Shown: positions 58,963 through 62,702, counted from the stretch's first letter. The stretch: DNA of 64,000 nucleotides from a virus (IMGVR_UViG_3300042698_000029:64001-128000); one strand, 5' to 3'. Translations and numbers: made by a program. Notes: generated by a model not told the origin, from the letters alone.

Positions 58963-59035
58963 TGAATCCGGTCGGACTCGAACCGACGACACGGTGGTTA
59001 AGAGCCACCTGCTCTTCCAACTGAGCTACGGATCC
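58963..59035 (-). tRNA. tRNA-Lys(CUU)
   Basis: Cloverleaf; anticodon arm GGTGG-CTCTTAA-CCACC; T-loop TTCGAGT. Confidence 0.92.
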
Positions 59036-59074
59036 GGGCGGGGACCCCGACATCACCAGTCGAGGCCCCCTTGT

Positions 59075-59148
59075 TGAAGAGAGACGGACTCGAACCGTCA
59101 TCCTTCGGCACCATAGGGCCGACGCGCTACCAATTGCGCTATCTCAAA
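59075..59148 (-). ncRNA. Degenerate tRNA-like RNA (8-nt anticodon loop, broken acceptor stem; possibly Pro-derived)
   Basis: D-stem GCGC/GCGC, anticodon stem TCGGC/GCCGA with loop CCTATGGT, perfect T-arm GACGG-TTCGAGT-CCGTC; only 4 of 7 acceptor pairs. Confidence 0.65.
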
Positions 59149-59154
59149 GGGGTT

Positions 59155-59391
59155 CCGTTCACGGTCCTGCACAGGCGGACGGGGTTCAGCTTCAAGAGGC
59201 ATGCGCTCTGCCATTGAGCCACCCGGGATCGGAGTCCCCGGGGCCGGATTCGAACCGGCATCTCACACCAGCAGACCCATCACGGTAGATCAGGACGCCG
59301 ACGGTTTGTCTGAGCCTGGAGCGAGAACATCAGCTTCAACGGGCTTTGAGATTCCCGTGAGAACTTCAGCAATCATCTTCAGTTTTCGCCC
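59155..59391 (-). ncRNA. Structured RNA containing a circularly permuted tRNA-like domain (YrlA/Y-RNA-like topology)
   Basis: On the minus strand T-arm GCCGG-TTCGAAT-CCGGC precedes a loop-closed acceptor stem CCCGGGG-ACTCCGA-TCCCGGG, then D-arm GCTC-AATGGCA-GAGC; closed by GGTGTG/CATGCC and outer CCGT..GTCCTG/CAGGAC..ACGG stem; upstream domain with TGAAG repeats. Confidence 0.8.
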
Positions 59392-59473
59392 TCAGGGCGA
59401 CCCGTGCGCTCAGTCACGGGAGTCTTGGAACGGTCCCAGGAGGGGTAGGGACCGTTGTGGGGATCACCTTACC

Positions 59474-60214
59474 TCATGAACCGAGAAGGTGCCGGAAGAT
59501 GTTCGCGCCGACGGTGACCTGTTCCACTTCCATGGAGTTGGCCTCCTCGCGGGCACGCTTGACGGCGTCCGACATGGCGTCGATACGGGCGACGATCTCC
59601 GCTCGGCGTTCACGGGGGAGGGCACCTGAGAACTTGGTCGTCTCCCAGTAGCCCGCGTTCTTGTCCACGGAGATGACCTCGGTCTGCGCCGGGTGCTTGT
59701 CGGTCGCCGGGTACTTCACCAGGACCGACTGCTCCTTGCGGTTGCGGACGGTCTTTACCGGAGCCGTACGGAAGCCTCCGTTTTCGGCGTCCGGGGTCCA
59801 CAGCTCCGCCGGGTCGAGGACCGGTGCCTTGGAGACCACGGTCCGCAGGTCGGTGAGCTGCTTCTCCAGGAAGAGCAGGTAGGGGACCGGCAGCTCGGGC
59901 GTGATGGCCTGGCCGTCCAGCACCACAGCGGCGCGGGCGCTCATGTTCGCGGTCTCCTTGGTGGCCACCACGTCGAAGAGCTCGGTGAGATGCTTCGCGA
60001 CGTCGGCCAGCATGAACTCGACGTTCTTCTGAACCAGCGTGGACTCCGGCGGCAGCTCGTCCCCACCGTCTTCGATCGGCGTGTACTTGCGGGAGAGGCC
60101 GCTGAAAAGCGGGGCCTTCTGGAGGCCGTGGTAGATCTCGGTCACCGCGTGCGAGGTGCGGGCCTGAAGACCCTTCTGTACGGCGACGATCTGACAGAGC
60201 TTCGGTGCGGTCAC
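59474..60214 (-). CDS. Conserved-type hypothetical protein (DUF7873-like), helical/coiled-coil
   Basis: KL.QI.A..KG, LFSG.SR.Y.P, LPPES..VQ, YLLFLEKQL, ATDKHPAQ, KFSGALP, AREEAN; GAAGGA RBS. Confidence 0.8.
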   Translation of the reverse strand: MTAPKLCQIVAVQKGLQARTSHAVTEIYHGLQKAPLFSGLSRKYTPIEDGGDELPPESTLVQKNVEFMLADVAKHLTELFDVVATKETANMSARAAVVLDGQAITPELPVPYLLFLEKQLTDLRTVVSKAPVLDPAELWTPDAENGGFRTAPVKTVRNRKEQSVLVKYPATDKHPAQTEVISVDKNAGYWETTKFSGALPRERRAEIVARIDAMSDAVKRAREEANSMEVEQVTVGANIFRHLLGS

Positions 60215-60245
60215 AGTCAATCCTTCGGTGAGCTTGAGTCTGAAG

Positions 60246-60364
60246 TGGGAAGAGTGGGATTCGAACCCACGATTTCCGCTGACACGCAGACGTTGCCTAG
60301 GTCGACTGCATAGACGGATCAACCGGATTTCGTCCGGCCCCATAAGCCACTCGGGCATCTTCCC
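60246..60364 (-). ncRNA. Aberrant tRNA-like RNA (Ser(CGA)-like; 5-nt anticodon loop, about 50-nt variable arm)
   Basis: Acceptor GGGAAGA/TCTTCCC, D-arm CCC-GAGTGGCTTAT-GGG, CCGGA-CGAAA-TCCGG, long variable region, T-arm GTGGG-TTCGAAT-CCCAC. Confidence 0.75.
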
Positions 60365-60555
60365 TAGATGGTCCAGGCCCCGAAAAAGTCTTCGGGGTAG
60401 ATCAGGTCGTACCAGTCCAGCGCAGCCTGTGCGTCTTGGTGATACTTCTCGGCGCCATCCAGGATGCTATCGCTGGCCTGACAGACGGCGCCTTCCCTCC
60501 AGCTGTGGGGACACGGCGTACACCACTGTGCTCCACAGGTGAGATGGCCTTTCAC
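60364..60555 (-). CDS. Small Cys-containing hypothetical protein
   Basis: CGAQWCTPCPH; start uncertain. Confidence 0.45.
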   Translation of the reverse strand: MKGHLTCGAQWCTPCPHSWREGAVCQASDSILDGAEKYHQDAQAALDWYDLIYPEDFFGAWTI

Positions 60556-60603
60556 TGCTTCCTTTCTCGAAGGGCCCGTTACGTGTCCCCGGTGGATGCC
60601 CAT

Positions 60604-60783
60604 ACCGGGTCTGGCGAGAGCGGGGACTACACCCTTCTTCCAGTCTTGCCTCGACTTGCAGGCAAAGGATGCATTCCCGTTGACACTACCCCTCTTAGTG
60701 ATCCAGGAAGGGTCCTCCCTTGCAGCCCCGAGAGGTGTTGCGGGGTATGCAACTCATGAGGCATTCACTCCGCCGGATCGGCA
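60604..60783 (-). ncRNA. Putative multi-branched structured RNA
   Basis: End-to-end pairing (CCG..CGGCGGAGTG / CGCTC.CGCCA..CCGG) enclosing several internal helices; no convincing ORF. Confidence 0.4.
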
Positions 60784-60821
60784 CCGCACCTGCCTGCCTC
60801 TCCAGCGTTCCTCGTTACCTG

Positions 60822-60988
60822 TGCCCTTGGCGGGATTCGAACCCGCGCCTGGATTTCTCCAGAGCTGAGTGTGGAAAACGCGCTTCCCTACAGACCCGGT
60901 TCGCGAGCCATTCGGTGCATCCGCAACCTTCTCAGCACGCCGCCCCTCCGTTTTTGGGCCGCTCTGTCCCTGCCTGAGCTACAAGGGC
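60822..60988 (-). ncRNA. 167-nt tRNA-like RNA with about 100-nt structured insertion replacing anticodon/variable region
   Basis: Acceptor GCCCTTG/CAAGGGC, D-stem GCTC/GAGC, T-arm GCGGG-TTCGAAT-CCCGC; insertion has GCTGAG/CTCAGC and CTGGA-GAAA-TCCAG helices. Confidence 0.75.
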
Positions 60989-60999
60989 ATGATCCATGT

Positions 61000-61386: not shown

Positions 61387-61458
61387 CTCCCCTTCAAGGA
61401 CTCGAACCTCAGTTTCCTGATCCAGAATCAGGCGTCCTGCCGACTGGACGAAAGGGGA
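61387..61458 (-). tRNA. tRNA-Gln(CUG)
   Basis: Acceptor TCCCCTT/AAGGGGA; CCTGA-TTCTGGA-TCAGG. Confidence 0.9.
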
Positions 61459-61482
61459 TTGAGATTATGCAATTGTACTGCG

Positions 61483-61556
61483 TAGGTGGGGTGGGATTCG
61501 AACCCACACATTGCATCCGTTATCCGGCCGTCTCTGCGCGATTGGACTACCCACCT
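61483..61556 (-). ncRNA. tRNA-like RNA with collapsed anticodon arm
   Basis: Perfect acceptor AGGTGGG/CCCACCT and T-arm GTGGG-TTCGAAT-CCCAC; anticodon arm only CCG-GATAA-CGG. Confidence 0.7.
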
Positions 61557-61637
61557 TTGCAGGCGCCTGCCGTATGGATCCCGACCAAGAGTACAGCAGG
61601 CGCCTTCACGAAACCGAAACCCGAGGGAATCGGTTGG

Positions 61638-61802
61638 TCATACGTCCTGGGCGATCTCCTCTTCGCAGCCCGCGTGCAGCCACTTCTTGAGGATCCGGTC
61701 CTCTACTTCGAAAACGTAGGGGTCCGCTACCCAGAAAACTTCTTCTTTCGCTACCCCTACCAACCCACAGTGGGAGCACTTTCGATACAGCTTGGTGTTC
61801 AT
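61638..61802 (-). CDS. Small zinc-binding-like protein
   Basis: CSHC...DPY...HAGC; GGAGGG RBS. Confidence 0.55.
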   Translation of the reverse strand: MNTKLYRKCSHCGLVGVAKEEVFWVADPYVFEVEDRILKKWLHAGCEEEIAQDV

Positions 61803-61849
61803 GAGGTTCCCTCCGAGTGAGTGACTTTTCAATCTCTCGGACGACCTCG

Positions 61850-61923
61850 TGGCTCGGGCTGGGCTTGAACCAGCGACCTTCTCCTTATGAGGGAGCTGCT
61901 CTAACCACCTGAGCTACAGAGCC
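61850..61923 (-). tRNA. tRNA with CAU anticodon (Met or Ile2)
   Basis: CTCC-CTCATAA-GGAG; T-loop TTCAAGC; one acceptor mismatch. Confidence 0.85.
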
Positions 61924-61931
61924 TTGCTTCA

Positions 61932-62216
61932 TCAGACGATCTTGTGGACCATCTTCGGCATCCCGAAGGACATCGCACAGGTGGGGCCGTACTGCGTCAG
62001 CAGCTCCACCTGGGGGACGCTGCCGTTCTCGAAGGGATCGGTCCAGGTCTCCACCGGCATGCCGTTCGGATAGCCGCCGTAGTTCATGACTTCGGCGAGG
62101 GTGGCGAAAGTACCGGCCGGGACGGAGGCGGCCCACAGCGTCACCTTCTCGGTGAGATGCTTCCCCAGGTCGGGGTTGGCGGCGTAGTGAGACTTCTTGT
62201 CGACCGTGATGTGCAT
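61932..62216 (-). CDS. Hypothetical protein
   Basis: GGGGGAG RBS, coding-like codons. Confidence 0.65.
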   Translation of the reverse strand: MHITVDKKSHYAANPDLGKHLTEKVTLWAASVPAGTFATLAEVMNYGGYPNGMPVETWTDPFENGSVPQVELLTQYGPTCAMSFGMPKMVHKIV

Positions 62217-62247
62217 GACTCCCCCTAGTTTCTCCCCGCGTGTACCG

Positions 62248-62320
62248 AGCCTCCGACAGGGTTCGAACCTGCGACACCTTCCTTACGAAGGAAGTGCTCT
62301 ACCAGCTGAGCTACAGAGGC
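62248..62320 (-). tRNA. tRNA-Thr(CGU)
   Basis: CTTCC-TTCGTAA-GGAAG; canonical cloverleaf. Confidence 0.92.
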
Positions 62321-62406
62321 AATGTCCGGCTTTCGAGCTCTCAGGAGACCGGACGAACCTGACTAAGGTGTTACCGGGCAGTACCCGGTTACTGATCAGT
62401 ACCCCG

Positions 62407-62480
62407 TACACTCGGCAGGATTCGAACCTGCAACCTCCTGGTCCGTAGCCAGGTGCTCTATCCGATTGAGCTACGAGCGC
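62407..62480 (-). tRNA. tRNA-Arg(ACG)
   Basis: CCTGG-CTACGGA-CCAGG; canonical cloverleaf. Confidence 0.92.
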
Positions 62481-62628
62481 TTGACGAGGTACCGCGTCTT
62501 CCTCGGACTCACCTGCGGGAGCCACGCGGTACCTCTTGCCTGGTGTGACCCAAGGCGACCGCCGTGTCCCGCACCCCTTGACCCCCGGAGGGCTCGCCTG
62601 GTGACGGGAACTTAACGGATAGCAGGAG

Positions 62629-62702
62629 TAGGGGAGAGAGGAATTGAACCTCCGACCTCGTGATTATCAGTCACGCGCTCTTACCAACTGAGCTACACCC
62701 CT
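62629..62702 (-). tRNA. tRNA-Ile(GAU)
   Basis: CGTGA-CTGATAA-TCACG; one acceptor mismatch. Confidence 0.9.

What the first reader, a model, noticed from the sequence alone, without database searches (positions are those of the whole stretch)
58963..62702. Nearly half of the tRNA-like genes are altered specifically at the anticodon arm
Seen: six canonical tRNAs (Lys-CUU, Gln-CUG, CAU, Thr-CGU, Arg-ACG, Ile-GAU; none encodes CCA) are interleaved with five non-canonical ones (59075, the permuted one near 59200, 60246, 60822, 61483). All five keep a perfect T-arm, and four keep a fully paired acceptor stem, while the anticodon arm is enlarged, shrunk, replaced or opened. Random pseudogenisation would not spare the elbow so consistently. 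Inference: a repertoire of tRNA-elbow mimics (decoys for anticodon nucleases or tRNA-targeting toxins, or processing punctuation).
Basis: partly seen in the sequence, partly recalled or inferred. Interest (0 to 1): 0.72.

Follow-up and report, generated by a model that had tools for sequence, protein, structure and literature searches.

The report
Conserved tRNA-shaped RNAs in a phage
Five odd tRNA-like genes in this phage's tRNA cluster are not decaying tRNAs but conserved structured RNAs, and one belongs to a previously undescribed RNA family that follows the unknown-function gene DUF7873 in hundreds of bacteria and phages.

Summary
The minus strand at 58962-62702 carries six canonical tRNAs and five aberrant tRNA-like elements, here called A, Y, C, D and E.

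Six related phage contigs (74-86% identical in the DUF7873 protein) carry every aberrant element wherever they cover its position. D is 5'-truncated in one of them. The order E-D-C-DUF7873-Y-A is fixed, while the canonical tRNAs come and go. C, D and E keep their helices through 10, 13 and 7 compensatory pair changes. A is 97-100% identical, against 54-65% identity at synonymous sites. Pseudogene decay is excluded, and none of the five can decode.

In C and D the main novelty is a giant variable region, not the anticodon arm.

The permuted element Y resembles YrlA Y RNAs, but the phage has no Ro/Rsr gene. Y lies 215 nt downstream of a DUF7873 gene. A permuted tRNA-like module follows DUF7873 in 103 of 104 loci examined, in Actinomycetota chromosomes and in phages of four bacterial phyla. 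A covariance model built only from bacterial loci hits the window at 73 bits.

The function is unknown. The decoy idea is untested. I found no expression data and no literature on DUF7873. First-stage notes of this scan had already flagged this DNA.

The parts
58962..59035 (-). canonical tRNA-Lys(CUU); no encoded CCA
   Evidence: ARAGORN; Rfam 64.9 bits. Replaced by tRNA-Ala in relative L027.
59040..59070 (-). G+C-rich hairpin closing the DUF7873-associated RNA locus, between A and tRNA-Lys
   Evidence: Sequence. The same hairpin follows the A-like element in the S. hydrogenans locus L030.
59075..59148 (-). Element A: tRNA-like with intact D and T arms, an 8-nt 'anticodon' loop CCUAUGGU, and only 4 of 7 acceptor pairs
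   Evidence: 97-100% identical in L015, L026, L027 and L029. Homologous A-like element in S. hydrogenans L030 7077-7149.
59150..59473 (-). Y: ~320-nt conserved non-coding RNA locus downstream of DUF7873. It has a 5' domain of two invariant hairpins plus GA-rich motifs, then a long irregular stem capped by the permuted tRNA-like module.
   Evidence: 80-91% identical to the window sequence in five relatives (blastn gives 82-93% over its aligned parts), against 54-65% at fourfold sites. Consensus fold.
59172..59290 (-). Core of Y: permuted tRNA-like module with its flanking stem. T-arm 59243-59259, 7-bp acceptor hairpin, D-arm ending at 59205.
   Evidence: Model R1, built from 40 bacterial DUF7873 loci only: 73.4 bits, E 1.8e-17, full length. 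Rfam YrlA 30.5 bits for 59205-59262. It is the only structural-pattern hit in the whole 153-kb genome.
59474..60214 (-). DUF7873 gene (246 aa, GTG start), the protein partner genetically linked to Y
   Evidence: Pfam PF25283, E 6e-92. AF2 pLDDT 92.8, fold without informative match.
60246..60364 (-). Element C: class-II-like tRNA scaffold with a 5-bp anticodon stem, a 5-nt loop, and a ~50-nt variable arm carrying a conserved CCUAGGC loop
   Evidence: Rfam 43.1 bits. Present in all 7 relatives. 10 pairs with compensatory change, 0/500 shuffles. Loop hypervariable.
60822..60990 (-). Element D: 169-nt tRNA scaffold (7-bp acceptor, D-arm, T-arm) with a 4-bp stem and 10-nt loop at the anticodon position and an ~85-nt multi-helix domain in the variable region
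   Evidence: 13 pairs with compensatory change, 0/500 shuffles. 78-93% identical in 5 relatives. 5' half missing in L015.
61386..61458 (-). canonical tRNA-Gln(CUG), an accessory insertion
   Evidence: Absent at this position in L014, L022, L026 and L027; present in L029.
61483..61556 (-). Element E: 74-nt tRNA-like with 7-bp acceptor and T-arm, a 3-bp D stem whose loop lacks GG, and a 3-bp stem with a GAUAA pentaloop at the anticodon position
   Evidence: Rfam 36.3 bits. 7 pairs with compensatory change, 0/500 shuffles.
61849..62702 (-). canonical tRNAs: CAU 61849-61923, Thr-CGU 62247-62320, Arg-ACG 62406-62480, Ile-GAU 62628-62702; a 94-aa ORF lies at 61932-62216

Best explanation
The five aberrant elements are functional, structured, tRNA-derived non-coding RNAs. 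They form the conserved backbone of this phage clade's tRNA region. None is a decoding tRNA.

Shown:
- They are syntenic (E-D-C-DUF7873-Y-A) and present in every related phage contig that covers their position (D is 5'-truncated in L015).
- They are as conserved as the real tRNAs or more so.
- Their helices, including the new ones, are maintained by compensatory substitutions.
- Y, together with A in this lineage and in a Streptomyces chromosome, is the RNA locus that follows the DUF7873 gene. Y's core is a member of a large RNA family found downstream of DUF7873 in 103 of 104 loci examined.

Inferred mechanism:
- The elements are transcribed with the tRNA operon.
- The acceptor/T-arm minihelix lets host RNase P, 3'-end trimming and the CCA-adding enzyme excise and stabilise each one. 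[quoted passage not shown]
- The tRNA-like body serves as a processing, stability and docking handle for tRNA-binding proteins.
- The parts that replaced the anticodon or variable arm are the specific working surfaces. In C this is a 50-nt arm, in D an 85-nt domain with invariant internal loops, and in Y a long stem plus a 5' domain.
- For Y and A the likely partner is DUF7873 (a Ro-independent, Y-RNA-like RNP). For C, D and E the partner is unknown.
For: Presence and synteny:
- blastn and ARAGORN in L014, L015, L022, L026, L027, L028 and L029.
- Gln, Phe, Ala, Asn, Tyr and Lys vary among relatives, while A, C, D, E and Y are constant.

Constraint:
- Fourfold-site identity in the adjacent gene is 54-65%. 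The elements are 73-94% identical over the alignments, which include a few flanking bases.
- The 74-nt core of A has 0-2 differences.

Covariation (count of structure pairs):
- C has 10 pairs with double changes, D has 13, E has 7.
- Each gives 0/500 shuffles, and slid controls give 0-4.
- The new helices covary: C's variable arm goes UGCAG/CUGCG to CACGG/UCGUG; D's GCCC/GGGC goes to ACCC/GGGU and GCCG/CGGC.

Not decoding:
- Loops are 5, 8 or 10 nt, or permuted.

DUF7873 link:
- A strict structural pattern for a permuted module is found within 500 nt downstream of the stop in 23/24 phage and metagenome loci and in 80/80 bacterial loci. Density is 271-fold and 405-fold above the rest of those loci.
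- It occurs once in the whole 153-kb genome.
- Model R1, built from bacterial loci only, scores the window at 73.4 bits, E 1.8e-17.
- S. hydrogenans L030 has the same 5' hairpins, modules and an A-like element.

Processing precedent:
- PMC4201824.
Against:
- Binding of DUF7873 to the RNA rests on gene-RNA linkage only. The DUF7873 fold gives no functional clue.
- The clade sample is small (5-7 related sequences), so covariation counts are not independent events.
- D is 5'-truncated in L015 and its GAAA hairpin is deleted in L014 and L029, so parts of D are dispensable.
- A's acceptor has only 4 pairs, which makes RNase P recognition uncertain.
- C, D and E were not found outside this clade (for D), so they could be young.
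Confidence: 0.62

Rival explanations
1. Decoys or sponges. The elements keep the tRNA body so that host anticodon nucleases or tRNA-targeting toxins (PrrC, RloC, VapC, HEPN types) bind them. Because they lack a cleavable 7-nt anticodon loop, they titrate or inhibit those enzymes.
For: The anticodon loops are exactly what is non-canonical (5, 8 or 10 nt), while the acceptor/T arms are kept by compensatory change. C's pentaloop is hypervariable between close relatives (CGAAA, CCUAA, CACAA, GUCAA), as an arms-race interface might be.
Against: No nuclease, toxin or anti-defence gene is linked to them, and no PADLOC family matches DUF7873. The large, conserved variable-region domains of C and D and the 5' domain of Y are unnecessary for a simple decoy. 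Y-type RNA with DUF7873 is also chromosomal in at least 514 bacterial species, where an anti-defence decoy role is not obvious.
Confidence: 0.15
2. Y is an ordinary YrlA-type Y RNA that works with the host's Ro60/Rsr protein. The phage supplies only the RNA, and DUF7873 is a bystander.
For: Rfam YrlA matches the permuted module here and in 8 other DUF7873 loci (30-50 bits, below the gathering score of 69). The 7-bp acceptor hairpin resembles M. smegmatis YrlA.
Against: There is no TROVE gene in this genome or in five other phages that carry the module. The Rsr-binding motif GNCGAAN0-1G is not enriched in these RNAs (ratio 1.05; absent from most loci). The RNA tracks DUF7873 in 103/104 loci, which a bystander would not explain.
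Confidence: 0.1
3. The elements are only processing punctuation. They exist to give RNase P and RNase Z cleavage sites that cut the polycistronic transcript into mRNAs for the small ORFs and DUF7873.
For: C begins on the last base of the stop codon of the 79-aa ORF and ends 31 nt before the DUF7873 start. D begins 9 nt after the stop of the 55-aa ORF.
Against: A minimal acceptor/T minihelix would suffice for this. It does not explain invariant internal loops and covarying helices in 50-110 nt of extra RNA, nor the near-invariance of A including its loop.
Confidence: 0.08
4. Some of the elements are unusual decoding tRNAs. C would be a suppressor or recoding tRNA: if A31-U39 opens, the loop reads anticodons GAA, CUA, ACA or UCA. 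A would be a quadruplet (8-nt loop) decoder.
For: Loop sequences in relatives include CUA-like and UCA-like triplets. 8-nt anticodon loops are known frameshift suppressors (own knowledge).
Against: The closed form of C has a 5-nt loop, position 33 is C or G rather than U, and the 'anticodon' differs between phages with the same genes. No in-frame stop codons occur in 19 ORF alignments of relatives. A lacks a paired acceptor end (4/7).
Confidence: 0.04
5. The elements are decaying tRNA pseudogenes that look special only because the T-arm is what makes them recognisable.
For: The ascertainment bias is real. D is truncated in L015 and a hairpin of D is deleted in two relatives.
Against: There are compensatory changes in 7-13 pairs per element, and 95-98% of cells are paired against 26-53% in slid controls. 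Identity is well above synonymous sites. The elements are retained in all relatives while real tRNAs turn over.
Confidence: 0.02

Closest known systems
YrlA bacterial Y RNA (Rfam RF02553; Chen et al. 2014, PMC4201824)
   Same: Both have a circularly permuted tRNA-like module (T-arm, acceptor-like hairpin, D-arm) capping a long stem formed by flanking sequence. The 7-bp acceptor hairpin matches M. smegmatis YrlA, which is cut by RNase P and receives CCA.
   Different: Y scores 30.5 bits against a gathering score of 69, and only on the tRNA-like part. There is no Ro60/Rsr (TROVE) gene in the genome. The Rsr-binding motif is not conserved in the family. Y is linked instead to DUF7873. It has an extra ~110-nt conserved 5' domain, and most family members carry two tandem permuted modules.
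Two-piece (permuted) tmRNA and permuted tRNA genes
   Same: The gene order places the T-arm and acceptor 3' strand before the acceptor 5' strand. In many DUF7873 loci the first module has NCCA right after the acceptor 3' strand. Rfam beta_tmRNA gives weak hits on the junction.
   Different: ARAGORN finds no tmRNA and there is no tag reading frame or pseudoknot set. The window's module has no encoded CCA. The putative anticodon region 3' of the D-arm is not conserved between close relatives.
Class II tRNAs (Ser/Leu/Tyr) and allo-tRNAs with long variable arms
   Same: C has a class-II-type D-arm (3-bp stem, GG in the loop) and a paired extra arm. D also expands the variable region.
   Different: The variable arms are ~50 and ~85 nt, against up to about 20 nt in tRNAs. 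The anticodon loop is 5 nt with no U33 in C, and 10 nt in D. They cannot decode.
Phage tRNAs with altered anticodon loops that escape host anticodon nucleases (own knowledge, not read here)
   Same: These are phage-encoded members of tRNA clusters whose distinguishing changes lie in the anticodon loop.
   Different: Those remain functional 7-nt-loop decoders. The elements here are non-decoding and carry additional domains.
124-nt tRNA-like element of Ralstonia phage RSL1 (L012 3377-3500)
   Same: It has acceptor, D and T arms intact, with the anticodon arm replaced by a long hairpin. It lies next to the DUF7873 RNA locus.
   Different: There is no sequence similarity to C, D or E. It is unannotated and unstudied.

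Membership tests
Decoding tRNA (RF00005) | 5-bp anticodon stem with a 7-nt loop carrying U33 and a triplet anticodon | tested here: not met
   A has an 8-nt loop; C has a 5-nt loop with no U33; D has a 10-nt loop on a 4-bp stem; E has a 5-nt loop on a 3-bp stem; Y has no closed anticodon arm.
Decoding tRNA (RF00005) | 7-bp acceptor stem and a T-arm with a UUCRAnY loop | tested here: met
   Met by C, D, E and Y (Y as a hairpin). A has the T-arm but only 4/7 acceptor pairs. Compensatory changes.
Decoding tRNA (RF00005) | Rfam gathering score of 29 bits | tested here: met
   A 46.6, C 43.1 and E 36.3 bits pass. D reaches 20.6 bits on its T-arm half only. Y is not matched as tRNA. The score reflects shape, not function.
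YrlA Y RNA (RF02553) | Permuted tRNA-like module (T-arm, acceptor hairpin, D-arm) | tested here: met
   Window 59205-59262 aligns to model positions 28-81.
YrlA Y RNA (RF02553) | Rfam gathering score of 69 bits over the full model | tested here: not met
   30.5 bits, partial. Other DUF7873 loci score 31-50 bits.
YrlA Y RNA (RF02553) | Encoded next to a Ro60/Rsr (TROVE) gene | tested here: not met
   No PF05731 match in the 153-kb genome or in 5 other phages with the module.
YrlA Y RNA (RF02553) | Rsr-binding motif GNCGAAN0-1G near the 5' end (PMC4201824) | tested here: not met
   The window has only GGCGAAAAC. The motif is absent from most family members and not enriched (ratio 1.05).
DUF7873-associated permuted tRNA-like RNA (family defined here) | Match to covariance model R1, built from 40 bacterial loci that exclude the window | tested here: met
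   Window 59172-59290 (-): 73.4 bits, E 1.8e-17, model positions 1-120.
DUF7873-associated permuted tRNA-like RNA (family defined here) | Lies 50-450 nt downstream of a DUF7873 gene on the same strand | tested here: met
   The module starts 215 nt after the stop at 59474. The same holds in 103/104 loci.
DUF7873-associated permuted tRNA-like RNA (family defined here) | Physical RNP with the DUF7873 protein | not testable with these tools
   Only genetic linkage is shown. The fold searches are uninformative.
tmRNA | tRNA-like domain plus a tag reading frame and pseudoknots | tested here: not met
   ARAGORN finds no tmRNA in the window. Rfam gives no tmRNA hit in the window at E<=10. No tag-like ORF was seen in D by inspection.
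tRNA pseudogene | Substitutions accumulate without regard to pairing, at about the neutral rate | tested here: not met
   95-98% of cells are paired with 7-13 doubly changed pairs. Identity is 73-100% against 54-65% at fourfold sites.

The most novel reading that the evidence does not exclude
DUF7873 and its downstream RNA, which carries one or two circularly permuted tRNA-like modules, form a new and widespread ribonucleoprotein. It would be a Ro-independent counterpart of the Ro60-Y RNA system, present in hundreds of Actinomycetota and in phages of Actinomycetota, Pseudomonadota and Cyanobacteriota. This phage clade has built around it a set of further tRNA-scaffold RNAs (A, C, D, E). Together they would engage the host's tRNA-processing, translation or RNA-surveillance machinery during infection.
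Probability: 0.4. Interest if true: 0.85.

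Novelty: new variant of a known kind. Interest (0 to 1): 0.72.

Why it matters
tRNA genes in phages are usually read as codon-usage or anti-nuclease supplements, and odd ones are dismissed as pseudogenes. In this clade the odd ones are the conserved core and the real tRNAs are the variable accessory.

The work also gives a first handle on DUF7873. This family has over 5,000 proteins and no known function or literature. It is almost invariably followed by a structured RNA built from permuted tRNA-like modules. 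That makes a concrete, testable protein-RNA system in tractable hosts such as Streptomyces, Gordonia, Arthrobacter, Rhizobium, Klebsiella and Vibrio phages. It extends the Y-RNA/tRNA-mimic concept beyond Ro60.

C and D show that a tRNA body can carry 50-85-nt structured inserts in the variable region in nature.

Tried and rejected
- **Nearby phage matches.** A megablast of the region against named phages found nothing. A blastn search found only tRNA-sized pieces.
- **RNA repair genes.** No TROVE or RtcB gene is present in the genome.
- **DUF7873 function.** PHROGs and PADLOC gave no hit. A PDB sequence profile gave nothing. Foldseek against PDB had no match at E<=0.001. VIA-align's top hit was 3kdq_A, a protein of unknown function (Z 9.2, rmsd 8.1); the rest were coiled-coil look-alikes. 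The ESM Atlas returned only DUF7873 itself.
- **Wider distribution of D and A.** Exact-core scans of IMG/VR for D and for A found no further copies.
- **Single-sequence folding.** Z-scores were not significant in this G+C-rich DNA, except for C at -2.4. Structure claims therefore rest on covariation.
- **Permuted module as tRNA-Lys(CUU).** The supposed anticodon loop CUCUUGA is CUGUUCA and CACAUGA in close relatives.
- **Rsr motif.** Rejected as a family feature.
- **C as a suppressor tRNA.** No in-frame stops were found in relatives.
- **ARAGORN 'tRNA' calls.** The calls about 35 nt after the stop in 27 bacterial loci look forced around module 1's T-arm and were not used.
- **Promoters and terminators.** The promoter/terminator scan gave nothing usable in this high-G+C region.

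Full report
**Setting**

The window is bases 64001-128000 of a complete 153,126-bp IMG/VR virus with direct terminal repeats and about 64% G+C. The nearest named phages are Streptomyces phages, and they match only at tRNA-sized pieces. All tRNA-like genes of the genome lie in one minus-strand cluster at window 58962-62702.

**Check of the observation**

ARAGORN and Rfam agree on six canonical tRNAs: Lys-CUU, Gln-CUG, CAU, Thr-CGU, Arg-ACG and Ile-GAU (56.8-72.9 bits). None is followed by CCA. The five aberrant elements are all present.

| Element | Coordinates (minus strand) | Main features | Source |
|---|---|---|---|
| A | 59148-59075 | Normal D and T arms; 5-bp anticodon stem with an 8-nt loop CCUAUGGU; only 4 of 7 acceptor pairs | |
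| Y | 59262-59205 | Circularly permuted: T-arm, 7-bp acceptor hairpin, U-G, D-arm; Rfam matches YrlA positions 28-81 at 30.5 bits | |
| C | 60364-60246, 119 nt | 7/7 acceptor; class-II-type D-arm; CCGGA-CGAAA-UCCGG anticodon hairpin with a 5-nt loop; ~50-nt paired variable arm | |
| D | 60990-60822, 169 nt | 7/7 acceptor, D-arm and T-arm; 4-bp stem with 10-nt loop at the anticodon position; ~85-nt multi-helix domain closed by GCUGAG/CUCAGC; a GAAA hairpin | |
| E | 61556-61483, 74 nt | 7/7 acceptor and T-arm; 3-bp D stem whose loop lacks GG; CCG-GAUAA-CGG hairpin | |

The description 'anticodon arm altered' needs correcting for C and D, where the main change is in the variable region.

**Is it more than chance or decay?**

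I therefore looked for relatives.

- The DUF7873 protein encoded at 60214-59474 (Pfam PF25283, E 6e-92) served as an anchor.
- It retrieved six related phage contigs with 74-86% protein identity: L014, L015, L022, L026, L027 and L029. L028 is a short contig carrying the same protein as L027.
- All five aberrant elements are present wherever the contig covers their position. The order E-D-C-DUF7873-Y-A is fixed.
- The canonical tRNAs vary. Gln occurs only in the window and L029. Phe, Ala, Asn and Tyr occur only in others. Lys is replaced by Ala in L027.
- Identity to the window is 97-100% for the 74-nt core of A (0-2 differences), 77-87% for C, 78-93% for D, 73-88% for E and 80-91% for Y.
- Fourfold-degenerate sites of the adjacent gene are only 54-65% identical.

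Helices are maintained by compensatory change.

| Element | Pairs with changes on both sides | Cells paired | Slid controls (pairs) | Shuffles reaching this |
|---|---|---|---|---|
| C | 10 | 98.2% | 0-3 | 0/500 |
| D | 13 | 94.8% | 0-4 | 0/500 |
| E | 7 | 97.2% | 0-1 | 0/500 |

The covarying pairs include helices that do not exist in tRNA. These are C's long arm and two helices of D's insert. D's internal loops are invariant.

C's pentaloop is hypervariable: CGAAA, CCUAA, CACAA and GUCAA. Uniform decay is therefore excluded.

There are limits to this evidence. The sample is small and the sequences are related. D lacks its 5' half in L015, and its GAAA hairpin is deleted in L014 and L029.

**What the permuted element is**

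Rfam's partial YrlA hit led to the Y RNA literature. YrlA RNAs carry exactly this permuted tRNA-like module and are encoded next to Ro60/Rsr. M. smegmatis YrlA has a 7-bp acceptor hairpin, is cut by RNase P and receives CCA in vivo (PMC4201824).

This phage does not fit that family:

- It has no TROVE or RtcB gene.
- Five other phages that carry the module also lack TROVE.
- The Rsr-binding motif GNCGAAN0-1G is not a feature of these RNAs.

The module instead tracks DUF7873:

- In named phages of Arthrobacter, Gordonia, Rhodococcus, Rhizobium, Vibrio, Ralstonia, Klebsiella and Pseudanabaena, the DUF7873 gene is followed by a 400-1100-nt unannotated gap.
- That gap holds sub-threshold YrlA or permuted-tmRNA hits in most of them.
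- I applied a strict structural pattern: a 5-bp T-stem with a UUCRA-type loop, then a fully paired 7-bp hairpin. It is found within 500 nt downstream in 23 of 24 phage, metagenome and chromosomal loci. That is 34 hits in 11 kb against 3 in 265 kb elsewhere.
- The pattern occurs exactly once in the whole 153-kb genome.
- A scan of species-representative genomes found DUF7873 in at least 514 genomes. In the best 80 loci, the pattern is present in 80 of 80, and twice in 67 of 80. These loci are Streptomyces, Nonomuraea, Nocardia, Frankia and others, plus one Chloroflexota MAG. Enrichment is 405-fold.
- A covariance model built only from 40 of those bacterial loci scores the window at 73.4 bits (E 1.8e-17, full length, 59172-59290). 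It also finds the phage loci.

Within the clade, the whole ~320 nt from the DUF7873 stop codon to A is conserved. It consists of two invariant 5' hairpins, GA-rich CUGA/UGAAG motifs, and a long irregular stem capped by the module.

Most other family members have two tandem permuted modules. The first often has NCCA directly after the acceptor 3' strand. The window's lineage has lost the first module's T-arm.

A Streptomyces hydrogenans chromosomal locus (L030) has the same 5' hairpins, both modules, an A-like tRNA-like element and the closing hairpin. A therefore belongs to this RNA locus in that sub-lineage.

**The protein**

DUF7873 gives a confident model (pLDDT 92.8) of helical hairpins plus a long beta-hairpin. 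It has no informative match in PDB, in a wide structural scan, in the ESM Atlas, in PADLOC or in PHROGs. No paper mentions it. Its link to the RNA is purely genomic.

**Mechanism**

Shown: these are selected, structured, non-decoding tRNA-derived RNAs, and Y is a member of a DUF7873-linked RNA family.

Inferred:
- The acceptor/T minihelix recruits RNase P, 3' trimming and CCA addition. This excises and stabilises each RNA and gives a handle for tRNA-binding proteins.
- The replaced arms are the specific working surfaces.
- DUF7873 is the likely partner of Y and A. The partners of C, D and E are unknown.

Rivals:
- The decoy idea remains possible. It is unsupported by any linked nuclease gene. 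It does not explain the large conserved inserts or the chromosomal distribution.
- Pure punctuation is too weak an explanation for the conserved inner domains.
- Decoding roles are contradicted by loop geometry and by the absence of in-frame stops in relatives.

**Novelty**

tRNA-mimicking Y RNAs are known. The following appear undescribed:
- the Ro-independent, DUF7873-linked family;
- its tandem permuted architecture;
- the clade-specific tRNA scaffolds with 50-85-nt variable-region domains.

They are not in Rfam 15 as their own families, and literature searches found nothing.

First-stage notes of this scan had already flagged the protein-plus-permuted-RNA pair and the giant tRNA on this same DNA. 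I tested those leads here.

Noticed in passing
window 61386-61458: tRNA-Gln(CUG) is a presence/absence polymorphism. It sits directly after element E in the window. It is 97% identical in L029 but absent from L014, L022, L026 and L027. More generally, the canonical tRNA content of this clade turns over quickly.
   Followed up: partly
window 60686-60821: About 135 nt immediately downstream of D are conserved at 86-88% in L014, L015 and L022, with no convincing ORF. This may be a further structured RNA or a 3' extension of D.
   Followed up: no
window 61560-61605: A long hairpin (GGCGCCUGCUG...CGGCAGGCGCC) lies just upstream of E. It is conserved with compensatory changes in L022 and absent from L014.
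   Followed up: no
L012 3377-3500 (Ralstonia phage RSL1): An unannotated 124-nt tRNA-like element (Rfam tRNA 41.3 bits) has intact acceptor, D and T arms and a ~70-nt extended hairpin in place of the anticodon arm. It lies close to that phage's DUF7873 RNA locus.
   Followed up: partly
L003-L006, L008-L010, L013 (named phages), about 50-190 nt after the DUF7873 stop: The first permuted module often carries NCCA right after the acceptor 3' strand. It reads ACCA in Mimi, Phendrix, Fryberger, NiceHouse and FBKp24, and GCCA or CCCA in Rhizobium and Vibrio phages. This suggests a two-piece RNA with a tRNA-like CCA end after processing. In the bacterial loci only 8 of 80 show it.
   Followed up: partly
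L013 2923-3007 (Klebsiella phage FBKp24): The record's 'tRNA-Sup-TTA' annotation overlaps the second permuted module of the DUF7873 RNA. It is probably a mis-call assembled from parts of two modules.
   Followed up: no
L011 2947-3156 (Microcoleus phage): In the one locus without a nearby permuted module, a HEARO RNA (129 bits) occupies the space downstream of DUF7873.
   Followed up: no
window 60880-60925 (element D insert): The invariant 4x4 internal loop GAAU/UGUA and the 6x6 loop GAUGCA/GAAGCG in D's long hairpin resemble sarcin-ricin/loop-E-type motifs, which are typical protein-binding platforms. This rests on inspection only.
   Followed up: no
window 51547-58600: A glycosyltransferase/methyltransferase/epimerase operon on the opposite strand is syntenic with the tRNA/DUF7873 region in L026, L027 and L029.
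   Followed up: no
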